Source of the DNA: Zootoca vivipara
Lineage: Eukaryota
Assembly (NCBI RefSeq): GCF_963506605.1
Contig: NC_083288.1
Location: forward strand, 29,574,001-29,638,000
Length of the DNA stretch: 64,000 nucleotides
Direction of reading: 5' to 3'
Position 1 is the first letter of the stretch, and every line of letters begins with the position of its first letter. Made by a program: the position numbers. Positions 9,001-18,000 of this stretch are shown here, piece by piece.

Positions 9001-12000
9001 GAATTCACACAATTACTAGAATGTCACATGCACACATATCTGAATTAACATCTAAGCAAAAAGTACATGTATCTTGGAGGCAGTCAGTAACACATACACT
9101 GCCCTGTGATAGGGAAGTTTCAGAATGCATGGGGGGATGCAACTTCTTTGCAACAACAACAACAACAACAACAATTTATTATTTATACCCCGCCCCTCTG
9201 GCTGGGTTTCCCCAGCCACTCTGGATGGCTTCCAACAGAAAAATAAAATAATCTATTAAACATTAAAAGCCTCCCTAAACAGGGCTGCCTTCAGATATCT
9301 TCTAAAAATCTAGTAGCTTCTTTTTCTCTTTGACATCTGATGGGAGGGTGTTCCACAGGGCGGGCGCCACCACCGAGAAAGCCACCACCGAGAAAATATG
9401 TTGCCATCTAAAGGAAGCTCAGGAGAAAATACAAAAAAGAGAAACCTCCTCACTGGACAATGCAGATTTTTACATCACTACTGAAATAAGAACAGAATAG
9501 GTACCAGAGGTATTCACCATTCCCTTAGAAACAAATGGAAGTGTGATGGAATAGCAGCATAGATAAAGGTGATTGCAATGGTCAGATCTTGAGTCAGCAG
9601 CAGTCAGAGTTTATTAAAACACCAACCAATCTGGAAGAACTGGTGAGTCAAAAAATACAGAACTTTGCTGTCAAACAGAGTGGGATTGTATGTCAGCTAG
9701 ATAGAGGGACTGTTTGTCATTTAGACAGCAACCTGAAGAGAGAAGGACCTTTTCTGATTGGGATTAGGAACTAGCTAAACATGGATGACCAATTTTATTC
9801 CTTGAAGGGGAATTAAATAGTTTAGGAGAAGTTGTAAGATAGTTGCTAGGGCAGTGAATCAAATGCCCATTATAAGTGGAAATAATCTATCCTGCAAAGT
9901 AGTTTGAAGAAAAATGCTGACTGGGGTTTTAAAGTTCAGTGTAAAGAGTGTCTGCCTGAAACTACATATTGTGTCTTACATGAATAAGCATGAGTAAAAT
10001 GAAGTGCCGTGCCTTTGAAGAGTAACCGTTAAGTTGTAACCCACAATGAGTGTAAGTAAACAGATGTATCCAGTGCTGTTACTAAGGAGAATTGTATCTT
10101 TTAAACACTGAGAAAATTGGTCATGCTATCCAGTCGCGTGTCAAGACCCTTTAAACCAACCCCCCGTTGGAATAAAGAACTTCAAACGGACACAGAATTT
10201 AAGTTTAAGGTTATTGGGCAAATTTTGGACAAAACTTTATTGATTACAAATGTGAGCGGTATTGGCTTAAGCATTGTCTAAAGACTATATCTTTATAGGA
10301 TTTTCCCCCAGGTGAAATCTATGGTATTTCCTTAGAGTTTACACCTGGTGGAAATTTACTGGTGGTTCATGCATTGCCCAGAGCTTTTAGCACAGTGGAG
10401 ATAAGCAGTGAGACTGACTGTGAGGTGGTATGTGTCAGATGATAGTTTAAAAATGGCCAGTCTCTATAAGTGCATGGACTGAACTGAGATAGGGCAAAAT
10501 AATGCTCTTCATATGGACCATCTCTACAGGCGAGACAGTGCACAGAATGTCAAGTCCATACACCCACCCGACCCCAATAGCTTCAGAATAGTGTAATGCT
10601 GTACAGTCATTGGACTAAGGGGACTAGGTTGGTCCCCTAAATGTTCCTCTGGTGCCTCCTTTCCAAAGCTTAGGAAGCTTCTGCCCAGCTTAGGGAAGTA
10701 GGTATGAGGCTAGTAGGAGACTAGCAGGCTCGATGAAGGCAAAATAAAAATTATAAAGCATCTGCTGAAAAAAGCCTTTGACTCAAAACAGATCTTTATT
10801 TGGCATTACAAAATGACTAGAAAAACGAACATCTCTGCAGAGCTCTTGTTAAATAGAAAACTCAGGACCAGACTACAATGTGCAGAATACCTGAACTATG
10901 ACTTAACACAAGGCTTTCAGTCTCAGATCCAAAAAAGATGGAGAAAAAAATGTGTGATGGAACAGGGTTATAAGCACAAATCCCACTACAACCAAAAGTG
11001 ACCGTCAAAATGCATGATGGTATCATGTGGACACATAGGTTCTCTTAACAAAAAAGTAACTTCCAGATCATATCAAATACAGGACTCAGATTGTCAAGTA
11101 TTCAAATGCAACAGAAAGCATCTACTTCAGATATCATAAAAGGGGGGGGGGGAATTGCAGAAGTAGGAGGAACACAGTGGGGGCAGGATAGTGAGCTAGT
11201 CATATCTCACACCAGTATTTTAAATATTATATAGCAAATTGTTTTGAAACAGGATGGTTTATTTACATACCTTGATTATTTGTGTTAGACCCATAGGGCA
11301 AAGTCTTTAAAAAACCACCATGGTTGTTTTTTTGTGTGACTCCTGAGTACAAGCATCCAGGAACACAATTACTAATTTGTTTGGGGCTCTTGAGAGCAAA
11401 CTCCCAGGAATATAAATGGAATAATAATAATAATTTCCACCTAATGGTAAAAGCATCATTCTGCAAGTGTATACAAACATTTTCACTGTCTCAGAAGAAA
11501 AGGAGGGAGAGAAAGAAAATGTTCCATGAGTTGCTAGAAGAATACAGAACATCTTAAAGTGATAAAGAAAATGCATCTGGAAATCTATTTTCTATAAAGG
11601 AAAAGAGTAAGGTGTTTATATATTTTTATAGCATTAGTGATACCTGGATAGCTTTTGGAGAGCAAAATGCAGACAATACTACTATACTATAGTCTATTGT
11701 GTAGAATGGGAAATTGTCCTTGTTCTAGGTTTCTCCAGAAACCTAATATCGACTGCACATAGAAAAACCAGTGACCTGGTTTCCATGACAAGCTAAGCCA
11801 AATTTTAGCTCAGTGAGACTGCATAAATGTGCAACCTCATGGAGAGAGGATTACAATTCCTTTGCTACTCCATGCTCCTTTGTACAGCCCTCACAAGCTT
11901 CACCAGGTTTTGACATAACATATAATCCAAACCAGGACTAGTGGTTAGCCTCTCTCCTAACCCACGATGAGCTGCAACCAAGAACAAACCTTCACTGCAG

Positions 12001-15000: not shown

Positions 15001-18000
15001 TCTCTCTCTCTCCGCCCTCTCTTTGCAGGCTCCCATCCCCGCGTCGGCCTGCGGATGGCGCTCTTTTCGCAATGCCTGGAGCCCACGGGCTTCCTGCAGT
15101 TGCTGCGCTCCCTGGCGCTGGGCGCGGCGTCGCAGCTGCGGGGCTCGGCGACGGCGGAGGAGTCCGCCTTCGTCCGCCGCAAGCTGGCGCTGCTGGAGCG
15201 TGACCTGGCTGCCGGGCCGGGGTTGTCGCTGGACGGCGCGGACGAGCTGGGCGCGGGCGAGGACTGCGTGTCGGCCGCCTTCCAGCAGCTGGCTCTGGCG
15301 GTGCGCGCGGCTGGCACGGCATCGGCGGTGCGCGAGACCGAGCTCTTCGTGGCCGCGTGCGCGCGCGAGAAGCTGGAGCGGCGCCTGCTGGCTGCGTGGC
15401 GGCGCGTGCAGGGCTGCAGGGTGGCGGCGCAACGGCCCTTGCTGGCGCGTGCCGTCGAGGAGCACCGGCCACGGAGGCCTGAGATGGCGGGCGTGTGCCA
15501 GAAGCTGAACGCGCTGCTGGGCGCAGGGCTGCTGTGCCTGCTGTGCCAGGCGGGCCTCACCCAGCGCGACCCGGCGCTGCTGCTGGCCGTCTGGGAAGAG
15601 CGCGTGGGCGCCGTGCACCGGCACATGAAGGAGGCGCTGGCCGCCTGCGCCCGCTACTTCCTCGAGCAAGCGCAGGACAATGTCGGGCGGGCGCTGGCCG
15701 AGCTGCCCGCGGCGGTGCCCCCCGGGCCAGCCGAGCTGGCCTCCAGCGTCCTGCGCAAGCTGGAGCAGAACTACGACTGGCTGCGCTGGGCGGTGATGGC
15801 CTGGCAGGAGGGCGGAGACGGGGCGGGCGGTGAGGAGGTGCCGGCGCGGTCGCGGGGGAAAGGTTCGGCTCCCACGCAGCAGCGGCTGCGGTTTGCGTGG
15901 CTTTCTGCTTGTTTGGGGGCTGATTTGGCGGCGCTAGCACGTTCGCCGAGTTTAGGAGCTCCACGCCGCCATCTTGCCTTGTCGGAAGTCCCAGTCTTGC
16001 GGACCCCTCTCGCATAGCTCGCGGACCCCTGGGGGTCCGCGGACCACCAGTTGGGAAACACTGGTCTAATCTGTTAAGGTCATTTTGAAGTGTGATCCTG
16101 TCCTCTGGGGTATTAGCCACCGCTCCCAATTTGGTGTCATCTGCAAACTTGCTCAGGATGCCCTCAAGCCCATCATCCAAGTCATTGATAAAGATGTTGA
16201 ATAAGACTGGGCCCAAGACAGAACCCTGTGGCACCCCACTAGTCACTACTCTCCAGGATGAGGAGGAGCCATTGATGAGCACCCTTTGGGTTCGGTCAGT
16301 CAGCCAGTTACAAATCCACTGAATGGTAGCATTGTCTAGCCCGCATTTTACCATCTTCTTTACAAGAATATCATGGGGCACCTTGTCAAAGGCCTTGCTG
16401 AAATCAAGATAGGCTACATCCACAGCGTTCCCTTCATCTAACAGGCTTGTAATTTTGTCAAAAAATGAGATCAGATTAGTCTGACATGACTTATTTTTCA
16501 GAAACCCATGCTGACTTTTAGTGATCACAGAGTTTCTTTCTAGGTGCTCACAGACTGTTTGCTTGATGATCTGCTCTAGAATCTTTCCTGGTATTGATGT
16601 CAGGCTTACTGGGCGGTAATTGTTTGGGTCCTCTTTTTTCCCCTTTTTGAAAATAGGGACAACATTTGCCCTCCTCCAGTCTGCTGGAACTTCGCCTGTT
16701 CTCCAGGAATTATCAAAGATTATTGCCAGTGGTACTGAAATCACCTCTGCCAGTTCTTTTAATACTCTTGGATGTAGTTCATCTGGCCCTGGAGACTTGA
16801 ATACATCTAAACTATTCTTGTACTACCTCCTTACTTGTTCTGGGCTGTGTTTCCCCTGCTGAATCATCTGCTCCATATTCTTCAGGTCGGGCATTGTTTT
16901 CTTTTTTGGAGAAGACTGAGGCTTCAAGCTGTTAAGGTATCCTGGACCTAAAGTTTTCCTTTAGATGAAGATTTATTATTACACTATTTTGTTCACTTCT
17001 TTTTTAAAAATCTGCATCCCACAAAAATCACATCCAAAGCAGTATTGGATAACAAATATTTGTTATCAGAAGAGGAATTAAATATATGCTTGTCTTCCTG
17101 TTTTCTTCTAGTGATGAATGCAAATATTGTCAATGAATCCTCTGTCTCTGAATTTCTACTCCTAGAGTTTTCAGCTGTACGGGAACTGCAGATTCTACAC
17201 TTCTCCCCGTTCCTGGTATTGTACCTGGCAATTGTATTTGGGAATCTTCTCATCATCTCTGCTGTAGCCTTTGACCACCACCTTCACACTCCCATGTACT
17301 TCTTTCTGATGAACTTGGCCATACAGGACCTAGGGGCTGTTTCAGTCACCATCCCCAAATCCATGGCCAATTCTCTCATGAATATCAGACACATATCTTA
17401 TGCTGGATGCATTGCTCAAGTGCTTTCATTCTTTTTCTTTGCATCATCTGATGTCGCCCTTCTTACAGTCATGGCGTATGATCGCTATGTTGCCATTTGC
17501 AATCCCTTACAATATGAAATGGTGATGAACAAGGCAGCCTGCAAACAAATGGTTGTTGGTGTGTGGGTTGCTGGAATTTTCAATGCAGTCATGCACACTA
17601 GTGCAACTTTTGCAACCCCTTTCTGCTCAAACAATGTCAATCAGTTTTTCTGTGAGATCCCACAGTTACTTACACTTGCTTGCTCAAACTTCTACCTAAC
17701 GGAAATTGGAGCTATAGTGGTGAGTATAATACTTGTTTCTGGGTGTTTTGTCTTCATTGTTGTCACTTATGTACACATCTTTACTGTGGTTTTGAACGTT
17801 CCATCTCTTCAGGGAAGGAAAAAGGCCTTCTCCACTTGCATACCTCACCTTGTTGTCTTCTCCCTATTTTGTTTCACAGGATGTTTTGCTTACCTTAGGC
17901 CTCCTTCAAAAACTCCATCTGATGGTGACTTTGCAATAACTTTGATGTATACCATTGTACCACCCATGTTCAATCCAATAATTTACAGCATGAGAAATAA

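What the first reader, a model, noticed from the sequence alone, without database searches (positions are those of the whole stretch)
11607..17113. The captured exon sits sense-strand in the OR 5'-UTR intron: a possible natural exon trap
Seen: every OR has a conserved GA|GTAAG donor upstream (here 11607) and a pyrimidine-AG acceptor just before the ATG (here 17111). In this unit the CR1/BovB/hAT nest adds ~4.6 kb to that interval. It places a strong-looking acceptor (15028) plus ATG-ORF on the OR sense strand, ahead of the OR's own acceptor. Inference: transcripts from the OR promoter could splice into the rapunzel-like ORF, expressing it in neurons that choose this OR and/or silencing an OR that looks intact.
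Basis: inference. Interest (0 to 1): 0.75.

Follow-up and report, generated by a model that had tools for sequence, protein, structure and literature searches.

The report
Captured gene exon inside smell-receptor intron
A jumping-gene remnant carrying a copied exon of an unrelated lizard gene sits, correctly oriented and with good splice signals, in the intron ahead of an intact smell-receptor gene, so it could be spliced into that receptor's messages, but no transcript data could be checked.

Summary
The sequence features are real at the stated coordinates. The window is a lacertid OR14-family tandem array: 2 of 5 ORs are letter-identical to named Zootoca vivipara models.

Only the paralog at 17114 carries a 4,564-bp nest (12356-16919):
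- an antisense LINE;
- a sense RT-bearing LINE with an 11-bp TSD;
- a 1,375-bp non-autonomous hAT (14689-16063, TIRs, 8-bp TSD).

The hAT's 1.2-kb payload copies the first ~260 codons of a rapunzel-like (PF27742/CTXL_M) gene. This is a "Pack-hAT", a known kind of element.

New here:
- The exon also has a strong donor (15830) where homology ends. That makes an 801-nt phase 1-1 cassette, in frame with an upstream mini-exon ATG (11967) and with the OR ATG.
- The payload is an undecayed CpG island.
- An antisense-LINE pseudo-exon (14244-14390) looks at least as splice-competent.

Predicted models of sister ORs place 5' exons upstream of the insertion site.

Whether splicing into the exon occurs cannot be tested with these tools. 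Verdict: anatomy confirmed, exon trap plausible but unproven, a new member of a known kind.

The parts
11402..11417 (+). Promoter-like core of the conserved upstream block: TCCCAGGA followed by TATAAAT, with AT-rich TAAT repeats just downstream
   Evidence: The sequence was read directly. These columns are invariant or near-invariant in 6 units. Identity to the most diverged units peaks here, 0.85-0.90 against about 0.75 background. The motif names are recalled, and no TSS was mapped.
11445..11606 (+). The start coordinate is a guess (about 30 nt after the TATA-like box).
   Evidence: U1 pairing is -5.8 kcal/mol, rank 10 of 250. The first coding exon of model P0037 (36717-36744) lies in the homologous block of unit 4. 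There are ATGs at 11519, 11526 and 11571; reading the sequence, each opens a short uORF.
11888..12006 (+). Mini-exon with ATG at 11967 (MSCNQEQTFTAAP), donor CTA|GTGAGT at 12007, phase 1, and acceptor TTTGTACAG| at 11887
   Evidence: It matches the N-termini of Zootoca and Lacerta OR models P0043 and P0044. The donor GT is kept in 4 of 5 aligned units and the ATG in 2 of 5.
12356..16919 (.). Transposon nest (4,564 nt), present only in this paralog
   Evidence: An empty-site alignment with unit 5 defines it. Block boundaries come from blastn and coordinates.
16064..16919 (-). It continues at 14008-14688 and 12356-12500.
   Evidence: RVT_1 E=1.3e-29 on the minus strand. An (ATAGAATC)3.6 repeat at 12355-12383 marks its 3' end on the other strand.
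12501..14007 (+).
   Evidence: RVT_1 E=4e-41. TSD. An (ACGACTAA)2.2 tail lies at 13981-13998.
14244..14390 (+). Rival pseudo-exon inside the antisense LINE: acceptor with 18/20 pyrimidines, donor CAG|GTGAGG
   Evidence: It has the best U1 pairing in the interval, -11.6 kcal/mol, rank 1 of 250.
14689..16063 (+). Non-autonomous hAT carrying foreign DNA (Pack-hAT). TIRs are CAGGGGTTCCCAAC and CAGTGTTTCCCAAC. The TSD GTCTAATC lies at 14681-14688 and 16064-16071.
   Evidence: (4 TIR matches against 0.05 expected). The sibling MITE at 26003-26461 shares only the first 82 nt (97.6%) and the last 69 nt (91.3%).
14795..15994 (+). Payload of host-gene origin. The part from 14950 to 15994 meets CpG-island criteria (72.6% GC, CpG o/e 0.95, 130 CpG).
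   Evidence: The flanking LINE has o/e 0.23 and the whole window 0.34. A 16-nt repeat present in 2.6 tandem copies sits at the left junction, 14754-14794.
15029..15829 (+). Captured rapunzel-like exon taken as a cassette. AG at 15027-15028, ATG at 15055, donor GCG|GTGAGG at 15830. It is 801 nt (3 x 267), phase 1-1, and open in that frame. Alternative ends are 15837 (809 nt) and 15862 (834 nt).
   Evidence: Homology of 15055-15807 to P0004 residues 1-251 at 86.9%. Family membership. Phases. Piecewise translation. Donor ranks. There is no homology downstream in any frame.
17038..17042 (+). NAGNAG acceptor (AAAG|CAG|) that corresponds to the one used by models P0027, P0037, P0039 and P0043. The frame is open from here to the OR ATG.
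   Evidence: The pyrimidine tract is weak: 11/20 and 8/20.
17094..17111 (+).
17114..18100 (+). Intact OR14-family receptor ORF (328 aa)
   Evidence: 7tm_4 E=1.8e-45, profile positions 1-277 of 280. The MAYDRY, KAFSTC, PMFNPIIY and NES motifs are present, and dN/dS to the nearest paralog is 0.36. Best named relatives are lacertid 'olfactory receptor 14A16-like' proteins.

Best explanation
What it is (shown). This is the last 5' intron of an intact OR14-family olfactory receptor gene in a lacertid tandem array. In this one paralog it is enlarged by three nested transposon insertions. The innermost is a Pack-hAT: a non-autonomous hAT whose interior was replaced by about 1.2 kb of host DNA. That DNA holds the complete first coding exon of a rapunzel-like (CTXL_M) gene, about 260 of about 378 codons, with its flanking intron-like sequence. 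It points the same way as the OR. The copy is young. Its CpG content is undecayed, it has no frameshift, and it shows no excess change at conserved sites.

How it most likely works (inferred). The whole nest is transcribed as part of the OR pre-mRNA only in neurons that have chosen this OR. The captured exon brings a branch point, a long pyrimidine tract, an AG and a strong GT donor, so it behaves as an alternative cassette exon. My best guess is that it is skipped in most transcripts and included in a minority. I put about 40% on detectable inclusion and about 10% on predominant inclusion.

Effect of inclusion (inferred). Inclusion inserts 801 nt of 75% GC, highly structured RNA with a well-placed ATG ahead of the OR start. 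With the 15830 donor, the frame runs on into the OR. With the 15838 donor, it stops at a TGA that overlaps the OR ATG. Either way, normal receptor output from those transcripts should fall. The most likely effect is therefore a dampened or partly disabled OR allele, not a useful new protein.

The confidence given (0.45) is for the whole statement including the inferred partial inclusion. For the anatomy alone I would say about 0.9.
For: Anatomy.
- Nest limits and empty site.
- hAT TIRs and TSD, plus a payload-free sibling element.
- LINE RT domains and their orientations.

Identity of the exon.
- 22 of 22 hits carry PF27742; the best is Podarcis P0004 at E=5.6e-130.
- tblastn covers residues 1-251 only.
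- The remainder of the payload is not homologous in any frame.

Youth of the copy.
- CpG o/e is 0.95 against 0.23 in the flank and 0.34 in the window.
- Private changes at conserved columns: 1 (copy) against 1 (Podarcis P0004) of 69 columns, and 3 against 4 of 134.
- The nest is absent from the paralog whose OR differs by dS 0.074.

Upstream exons lie upstream of the nest.
- Models identical to sister ORs, and the mini-exon at 11967-12006.

Splice signals.
- The acceptor ties for the top of 395 AGs.
- CTAAC lies at -38.
- Donor 15830 pairs with U1 at -8.8 kcal/mol, rank 2 of 250. That is stronger than the donors at 11607 (-5.8) and 12007 (-6.5).

Frames..

Leader structure. The cassette folds at -466 kcal/mol per 801 nt, against -25.8 per 162 nt for the putative exon 1. 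Mouse OR mRNAs are AU-rich and weakly structured, and those traits go with higher expression (PMC4627058, abstract).

Precedent. At least 30% of animal Pack-TIRs studied are transcribed as chimeras with host genes (PMC8277862, passages). Mammalian ORs have alternatively spliced 5' exons, frequent uORFs and some chimeric transcripts (PMC7055050, passages).
Against: - No RNA evidence of any kind was available.
- No protein model holding this exon from this species turned up. No fusion longer than 395 aa was found either. Those sets are clustered, and olfactory tissue is rarely sampled.
- The upstream-exon evidence comes from predicted models of paralogs, which may be partly ab initio.
- An 801-nt internal exon is far longer than typical vertebrate internal exons (recalled).
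- The parent gene's structure is unknown. The 'acceptor' could be a CT-rich 5' UTR or promoter tract, and the native exon end could be 15837 rather than 15829. The read-through residues EEV match the orthologues' EEV|LAQG.
- The OR shows no relaxed constraint: dN/dS is 0.36, within the 0.26-0.42 range of all pairs. The insertion is too young for this to weigh much.
- Most intronic pseudo-exons are never used (general knowledge).
Confidence: 0.45

Rival explanations
1. Inert passenger. The nest is removed with the intron in essentially all transcripts, and the captured exon is never used. The OR is expressed like its insertion-free sisters.
For: - Most intronic splice-site look-alikes are ignored (general knowledge).
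- The OR is intact and evolves like its paralogs.
- No model or fusion protein with this exon was found.
- The exon is very long for an internal exon.
- The OR's own acceptor at 17111 is equally pyrimidine-rich.
Against: - This is a bona fide gene exon with a full signal set, not a chance look-alike.
- Its donor pairs with U1 better than the OR's own upstream donors.
- It is transcribed about 2 kb before the OR acceptor.
Confidence: 0.4
2. The captured exon is the predominant splice target. The allele then makes mainly rapunzel-fragment mRNA in the neurons that choose it, and it is effectively a null OR despite an intact ORF.
For: The signals are the same as for the best explanation. In addition, the ATG at 15055 has G at -3 and G at +4. 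The 801-nt GC-rich leader would block scanning to the OR ATG.
Against: - There are no RNA data.
- OR dN/dS is not relaxed.
- There are competing sites: 17111, and the pseudo-exon 14244-14390.
- Long exons are poorly defined by the splicing machinery (recalled).
Confidence: 0.1
3. Promoter capture. The payload includes the parent gene's CpG-island promoter and true first exon. It starts its own transcripts near 14950-15030. These splice from 15830 to the OR exon and would give ectopic, non-olfactory chimeric RNA whose ORF runs in frame into the OR.
For: - The CpG island covers 14950-15994.
- CCGCCC and CCCGCC boxes lie at about 14965-15016, and only 26 nt separate the 'acceptor' from the ATG.
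- Donor 15830 is strong and in frame with the OR.
Against: - A textbook branch point, pyrimidine tract and CAG|G directly precede the exon, which fits a native internal exon.
- Upstream of 14950 the payload is ordinary, about 46-59% GC.
- No fused model was found.
- The parent gene's structure is unknown.
Confidence: 0.07
4. The OR is transcribed from a start site downstream of the nest (16920-17111). The nest is then upstream DNA, not intron, and splicing into it cannot occur.
For: - Some mammalian OR transcripts are single-exon: the mean exon number is 1.7-2.3 (PMC7055050, Table 3 passage).
- Unit 2 has a unit-specific TTAAATATAT at about 17077-17090.
Against: - Models of sister ORs in this array have 5' exons 1.2-6.1 kb upstream.
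- The promoter-like block and both upstream donors are kept in the units that have ORs. The donor is lost (GT to AT) in the OR-less partial unit.
- Only 120-190 nt are available between the nest and the acceptors.
Confidence: 0.1
5. A different piece of the nest is the one that gets exonised: the 147-nt antisense-LINE segment 14244-14390. This is not exclusive of the other readings.
For: - The acceptor has 18/20 pyrimidines.
- Its donor CAG|GTGAGG matches 8 of 9 consensus positions and pairs with U1 at -11.6 kcal/mol, rank 1 of 250.
- Its size is typical for an exon.
Against: - The only branch-point motif found lies at -15, which is close to the AG.
- It has no history as a real exon.
- There are no RNA data.
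Confidence: 0.15

Closest known systems
Pack-TIR / Pack-hAT elements of animals (Tan et al. 2021, PMC8277862; passages read)
   Same: - A non-autonomous TIR element whose interior is replaced by host sequence.
- hAT is the commonest carrier (208 of 370).
- Exonic captures are over-represented.
- Many such elements are co-transcribed with host genes as chimeras.
- The junction here shows a local tandem repeat, which fits template switching.
   Different: - The payload, about 1.2 kb, is much larger than the reported median of 224 bp.
- It is a whole coding exon with both splice signals.
- The parental copy could not be located here.
- 'Lizard' occurs 0 times in that paper's main text. Its supplementary lists could not be opened.
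Pack-MULEs of rice and Helitron gene capture in bats and frogs (PMC5861414, PMC4224331, PMC12001565: search listings only)
   Same: Transposon-mediated duplication of gene fragments that can join host transcripts.
   Different: The transposon superfamily and the capture mechanism differ. Those elements are often multicopy, whereas here only one payload-bearing copy is visible.
Mammalian OR gene architecture with alternative 5' exons, uORFs, split coding regions and chimeric transcripts (Barnes et al. 2020, PMC7055050; passages read)
   Same: - One to several short 5' exons are spliced to one long coding exon.
- Upstream ATGs and uORFs are common.
- A few ORs read in frame from an upstream exon.
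- 11 chimeric OR loci were found per species.
   Different: - Those data are from mouse and human and rest on RNA.
- The structure here is inferred from predicted lizard models.
- The extra exon here would add about 267 codons, not a few.
Laboratory exon trapping and gene-trap cassettes (recalled, textbook)
   Same: An exon with its own splice sites, placed in a foreign intron, is picked up by the host transcript. A splice-acceptor plus ORF hijacks the host promoter.
   Different: This is a natural insertion. No selection, reporter or poly(A) signal is present: AATAAA is absent from 11607-17111. The outcome has not been measured.
Exonisation of antisense Alu and LINE sequences in introns (recalled)
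   Same: Antisense retroelements offer pyrimidine-rich acceptors. The nest has such a candidate at 14244-14390.
   Different: The main candidate here is not TE sequence but a transduplicated host exon.

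Membership tests
Pack-TIR (Pack-hAT) transduplicating element | Terminal inverted repeats of a TIR transposon | tested here: met
   The 14-nt TIRs match at 12 of 14 positions. The motif occurs 4 times in the window against 0.05 expected.
Pack-TIR (Pack-hAT) transduplicating element | 8-bp target-site duplication typical of hAT | tested here: met
   GTCTAATC is present on both sides. The sibling element has GACTATAG. That 8 bp is typical of hAT is recalled.
Pack-TIR (Pack-hAT) transduplicating element | Interior of non-transposon, host-gene origin, differing from payload-free members of the same element family | tested here: met
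   The sibling at 26003-26461 shares only 82 + 69 terminal nt. The interior is homologous to rapunzel-like proteins.
Pack-TIR (Pack-hAT) transduplicating element | A separate parental copy of the captured sequence in the same genome | not testable with these tools
   No vertebrate genome collection is on hand. No Zootoca protein appears among the 22 hits. The rest of the gene is absent from the window.
Rapunzel / CTXL_M (PF27742) proteins | Significant similarity to family members over the helical domain | tested here: met
   E=5.6e-130 to P0004. All 22 hits carry a precomputed PF27742 annotation, and a Varanus hit is named 'Protein rapunzel'. The Pfam name is CTXL_M. The model is absent from the local Pfam copy.
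Rapunzel / CTXL_M (PF27742) proteins | Full-length architecture, including the conserved C-terminal third (...ELEWKLPNPPPEVYA...GTVC.FG) | tested here: not met
   Homology ends at about residue 261. No frame downstream matches: between 19 and 199 of 200 shuffles score at least as well. This is a gene fragment, not a family member gene.
Olfactory receptor gene with spliced 5' exons | Intact 7TM OR coding exon | tested here: met
   7tm_4 E=1.8e-45; hallmark motifs are present.
Olfactory receptor gene with spliced 5' exons | Upstream exon(s) and TSS located 5' of the nest | tested here: inconclusive
   This is supported only by predicted models of sister ORs and by conserved donors. There are no transcripts and no TSS mapping.
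Cassette exon / natural exon trap | Sense orientation with branch point, pyrimidine tract, AG and GT donor | tested here: met
Cassette exon / natural exon trap | Observed splice junctions in RNA | not testable with these tools
   No lizard RNA data are reachable. A search for Zootoca, RNA-seq and olfactory listed 7 papers, none on lacertid olfactory tissue by title or abstract.
CpG island | At least 200 nt, GC above 50%, CpG observed/expected above 0.6 (thresholds recalled) | tested here: met
   1,045 nt, 72.6% GC, o/e 0.95, 130 CpG.

The most novel reading that the evidence does not exclude
The captured exon is really used. It is a symmetric cassette (801 nt, phase 1-1), open in frame, in register with the mini-exon ATG at 11967 and with the OR ATG through every candidate OR acceptor. 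Neurons that choose this allele would therefore make a chimeric receptor. By coordinate arithmetic it would be about 587-609 residues, with a roughly 260-residue rapunzel-like helical domain on its extracellular N-terminus.

If that protein fails to mature, the allele would be an intact-looking OR that cannot lock in its own choice. That would be a natural test of OR feedback. It would also give choice-coupled expression of an immune-linked protein fragment in olfactory neurons.
Probability: 0.07. Interest if true: 0.7.

Novelty: new member of a known kind. Interest (0 to 1): 0.4.

Why it matters
If the exon is included, this is a ready-made natural experiment. The two closest paralogs compared here (dS 0.074) differ by a captured exon in the 5' intron. 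Comparing their mRNA isoforms, protein output and the frequency with which neurons choose them would show three things:
- how tolerant OR expression is to 5' leader changes;
- whether an intact-looking OR can be functionally silent, which matters for counting 'functional' OR repertoires from genomes;
- how Pack-type transposons create chimeric genes in vertebrates.

If it is not included, the case is an ordinary though well-preserved example of exon transduplication by a hAT element in a lizard. That would add a large whole-exon capture to a catalogue dominated by roughly 200-bp fragments.

Tried and rejected
Searches that found nothing.
- Fused rapunzel-OR proteins. The 'longer' word-based search found none, which the tool itself calls weak evidence. 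A full HMMER scan of 1.84 billion representatives gave 15 hits, 0 longer than 395 aa.
- PDB by profile: 0 hits at E<=1.
- Rfam at gathering scores on 11000-18300: 0 matches.
- Papers on hAT transduplication in Anolis: 0 papers held all three terms. A looser search was swamped by 'hatchling'. A search on OR non-coding exons and transposable elements listed nothing relevant.

Ideas rejected.
- The payload tail (15838-15994) might be diverged coding sequence, because MAFFT lined up AC.G....AL.R. This was rejected: local alignment scores in all 3 frames lie within the shuffle range.
- Intactness of the ORF might signal selection. This was rejected as uninformative: at 75% GC, three further frames (two on the minus strand, one on the plus strand) are also open for 189-332 codons.
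Flanking intron is just as conserved. Only weak extra signals exist: local identity peaks and loss of the GT in the OR-less copy.

Tools that could not be used.
- Structure prediction was not accepting jobs, so no fold search was made.
- Cluster membership, meant to show the model for OR17114 itself, was switched off.
- The Atlas did not hold the window's own sequence. I used the homologue P0005 instead, only to learn the Pfam name.
Other copies of the element and the parent gene therefore stayed unchecked.

Full report
**Observation**

- **Donor.** GAGTAAG lies at 11605-11611, so the GT is at 11607. As a bare 7-mer it is not enriched: 7 matches against 7.8 expected. Its 25-nt context is different. 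It occurs 7 times, always on the + strand, against 0 expected. It lies 1.1-1.8 kb upstream of four of the five intact + strand ORs, and 5.5 kb upstream of the OR at 17114.
- **Other copies.** A sixth copy lies at the window's end. A seventh, in a partial unit with no OR, has lost the GT.
- **Acceptor.** ...CTTCCTGTTTTCTTCTAG precedes all five ORs.
- **Meaning of the conservation.** These sites are homologous positions in tandem duplicates with 84-86% column identity, and intron bases are as conserved as exon bases. Conservation alone therefore says little.
- **ORs.** All five carry full 7tm_4 domains.

**The nest**

Aligning unit 2 with the insertion-free unit at 54164 fixes the insertion at 12356-16919, which is 4,564 nt. 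It has three layers.

- **Outer LINE, antisense to the OR.** There is an RT domain on the minus strand at 16064-16822 (RVT_1, E=1.3e-29). An 8-nt repeat tail lies at 12355-12383.
- **Second LINE, in sense, at 12501-14007.** It has an RT ORF (E=4e-41) and an 11-bp TSD.
- **A 1,375-nt element at 14689-16063.** It has 14-nt TIRs and an 8-bp TSD, GTCTAATC.

A 459-nt sibling of the third element lies at 26003-26461, in the 5' intron of the paralog at 27645. It has its own TSD and the opposite orientation. It shares only the first 82 nt and the last 69 nt. The interior of the 14689 element (about 14795-15994) is therefore foreign. This is a Pack-TIR in the sense of Tan et al. 2021 (PMC8277862, passages read). 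That study reports 370 such elements in 100 animal genomes, 208 of them on hAT. The median payload is 224 bp, 13.4% of payloads are exonic, and at least 30% of those examined are transcribed as chimeras. A 16-nt repeat present in 2.6 tandem copies at the left junction fits the template-switching origin those authors propose.

**The payload**

- **Identity.** The ORF 15055-16017 (320 codons) matches 22 vertebrate proteins of 374-531 aa. All carry PF27742, and one is named 'Protein rapunzel'. The Atlas names PF27742 CTXL_M, a cephalotoxin-like middle helical domain.
- **Best hit.** It is a Podarcis muralis protein, 86.9% identical over residues 1-251.
- **Where homology stops.** It stops at about 15837. 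Nothing downstream resembles the conserved C-terminal third in any frame, and that third is nowhere else in the window. What was captured is therefore the first coding exon, about 260 of about 378 codons.
- **Family function.** Rapunzel proteins are linked to skeletal growth, haematopoiesis and TBK1/interferon control in zebrafish, and to innate immunity in planarians (bioRxiv 10.1101/2025.08.09.669486 and PMC13563047, passages read).

**Age**

- **CpG content.** The payload is a CpG island: 72.6% GC, o/e 0.95 and 130 CpG in 1,045 nt. The flanking LINE has o/e 0.23 and the window 0.34.
- **Conserved sites.** The copy has no frameshift. It shows no more private changes at conserved columns than the Podarcis orthologue: 1 against 1 of 69 columns, and 3 against 4 of 134.
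- **Timing.** The nest post-dates the split from the 54164 paralog (OR dS 0.074).
- **Open frame.** The open frame itself is uninformative at this GC content.

**Where the OR's 5' exons are**

- **Taxon.** The OR at 17114 is an 'OR14A16-like' gene of Lacertidae. The ORs at 7651 and 38007 are 100% identical to the Zootoca vivipara models P0039 and P0037.
- **N-terminal extensions.** Six of the nine lacertid models I read (P0027, P0032, P0037, P0039, P0042, P0043) carry 33-112 extra N-terminal residues, and two more (P0044, P0047) begin with short upstream-exon peptides. Mapping these extensions to the window gave three results.
  - P0039 starts in an acidic exon at 1315-1438, 6.1 kb upstream of its OR.
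  - P0043 and P0044 start in a mini-exon. Its unit-2 copy is at 11967-12006 (MSCNQEQTFTAAP), with donor CTA|GTGAGT at 12007.
- **Position relative to the nest.** All of these lie upstream of the insertion-site equivalent.
- **Acceptors used.** P0027, P0037, P0039 and P0043 enter the OR exon at a NAGNAG acceptor that corresponds to 17039/17042. The frame is open from there to the ATG. P0044 and P0047 use the 17111-type site.
- **Caveats.** These are predicted models of paralogs. The model for OR17114 itself could not be seen.

**Splice signals and frames**

Exons were handled one at a time, and frames come from coordinates and piecewise translation.

- **Acceptor 15028.** It has 18 of 20 pyrimidines, tied for the top of 395 AGs with 17111, 14624 and 14243. 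A CTAAC motif lies 38 nt upstream.
- **Donors.** At the point where homology ends there is GCG|GTGAGG (15830). Its U1 pairing is -8.8 kcal/mol, rank 2 of 250 GTs. That is stronger than 11607 (-5.8) or 12007 (-6.5).
- **The cassette.** With that donor the exon is 801 nt, which is 3 x 267, phase 1 in and out, and open.
- **Register.** The mini-exon ends in phase 1. Every candidate OR acceptor accepts phase 1 in register with the ATG at 17114.
- **Other donors.** A weaker donor at 15863 (834 nt) also keeps the frame. GAG|GTGCCG at 15838 (809 nt) may be the parent's native site, because EE|V matches the orthologues' EEV|LAQG. It shifts the frame onto a TGA that overlaps the OR ATG.
- **Poly(A) signals.** There is no AATAAA anywhere in 11607-17111.
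- **A rival pseudo-exon.** The antisense LINE holds one at 14244-14390 (147 nt). Its acceptor is equally pyrimidine-rich, and its donor is the best in the interval at -11.6 kcal/mol.

**Likely working**

- **Shown:** a young Pack-hAT with a whole foreign exon lies in sense in the intron that separates the OR's upstream exons from its coding exon.
- **Inferred:** it is transcribed only when this OR is chosen, and it acts as an alternative cassette exon.
- **Effect of inclusion:** it would put a strongly structured leader (-466 kcal/mol, against -25.8 for the putative exon 1) and a well-placed ATG ahead of the OR. Mouse OR mRNAs are AU-rich and weakly structured, and those traits go with higher expression (PMC4627058, abstract). 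Included transcripts should therefore yield little normal receptor.
- **Odds:** about 40% for detectable inclusion, about 10% for predominant inclusion and about 40% for none.
- **Other rivals:** promoter capture through the CpG island, a TSS downstream of the nest, and use of the LINE pseudo-exon instead.
- **Constraint on the OR:** its dN/dS of 0.36 lies within the 0.26-0.42 range of all pairs. It shows no decay, but the time elapsed is short.

**Comparison and novelty**

- **The element.** It is a Pack-hAT with three of four defining features met. The parental copy cannot be located with these tools.
- **The ORF.** It is a fragment of a rapunzel/CTXL_M gene and fails the full-length test.
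- **The host gene.** Its architecture matches the mammalian OR pattern of spliced 5' exons, uORFs and occasional chimeras (PMC7055050, passages read).
- **Prior reports.** I found no paper describing a Pack-type capture in an OR intron or in a lizard. The supplementary tables of Tan et al. could not be opened and may list lizard cases.
- **Rating.** This is a new member of a known kind. It stands out for the size and completeness of the captured exon and for its frame compatibility with the OR.

**Not checked**

- There was no RNA data of any kind and no vertebrate genome search. The parent gene, other copies of the element and population presence therefore stayed unchecked.
- The N run at 60401-60545 was left as it is.

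Noticed in passing
window 26003-26461 (minus orientation): This is a payload-free sibling of the hAT element, with its own 8-bp TSD (GACTATAG). It sits in the 5' intron of the paralogous OR at 27645. The same hAT family therefore hit two sister OR introns independently, after the duplications.
   Followed up: yes
window 1315-1438: An acidic exon (MVIAKYDFSDDEGTEIEGEDSDNDSDSD...) is joined in frame by a named Zootoca vivipara model (P0039) to the OR at 7651, 6.1 kb downstream. It is single-copy in the window and has no Pfam match. Its origin is unknown. It is a predicted precedent for a foreign coding exon on an OR in this same array.
   Followed up: partly
window 10718-12363 versus 16952-18108: Unit 2 is a mosaic. 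Its upstream block is closest to unit 1 (95.3%, against 90.9% to unit 5). Its OR exon block is closest to unit 5 (94.5%, against 84.9% to unit 1). The switch falls at the nest. This suggests unequal crossing-over or gene conversion there, or an assembly join.
   Followed up: no
window 17112 (gap relative to paralogs): An 18-nt deletion lies immediately 3' of the 17111 acceptor and is unique to unit 2. It is in frame with the extended reading frame. It removes one of the two tandem ATGs and leaves only TG between the AG and the ATG.
   Followed up: partly
This stretch is also the least conserved part of that otherwise 88-100% identical copy.
   Followed up: partly
window 14244-14390: An antisense-LINE pseudo-exon of 147 nt has the best donor in the whole interval (CAG|GTGAGG) and an acceptor with 18/20 pyrimidines. 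One frame is fully open.
   Followed up: yes
window 55500-56372 (+), 60329-61288 (-), 58742-59934 (-), N run 60401-60545: Two low-complexity S/F/L-rich ORFs are inverted copies of each other. The 3' flank of OR17114 (18100-19500) recurs inverted at 59934-58742 with 92-94% identity. An assembly gap of 145 N lies inside the inverted part.
   Followed up: no
window 43285-45863: A further diverged OR unit lies here. Its mini-exon (43974-44012) matches Lacerta and Zootoca model N-termini at 100% in two different frames. Its OR part lacks about 160 nt relative to unit 2, so it is probably a pseudogene in this window.
   Followed up: partly
proteins P0042, P0048, P0061 (named squamate OR14 models): These predicted ORs have 82-231 N-terminal residues ahead of the 7tm_4 domain, with no Pfam match in that part. 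Long foreign N-terminal extensions are common in squamate OR14 annotation, whether real or artefact.
   Followed up: partly
window 15964-15977: CGCCGCCATCTTGC lies in the non-homologous tail of the payload. On the opposite strand it reads like a YY1-type AAGATGGCGGC box (motif recalled). It might mean that part of the payload comes from a promoter-proximal region.
   Followed up: no
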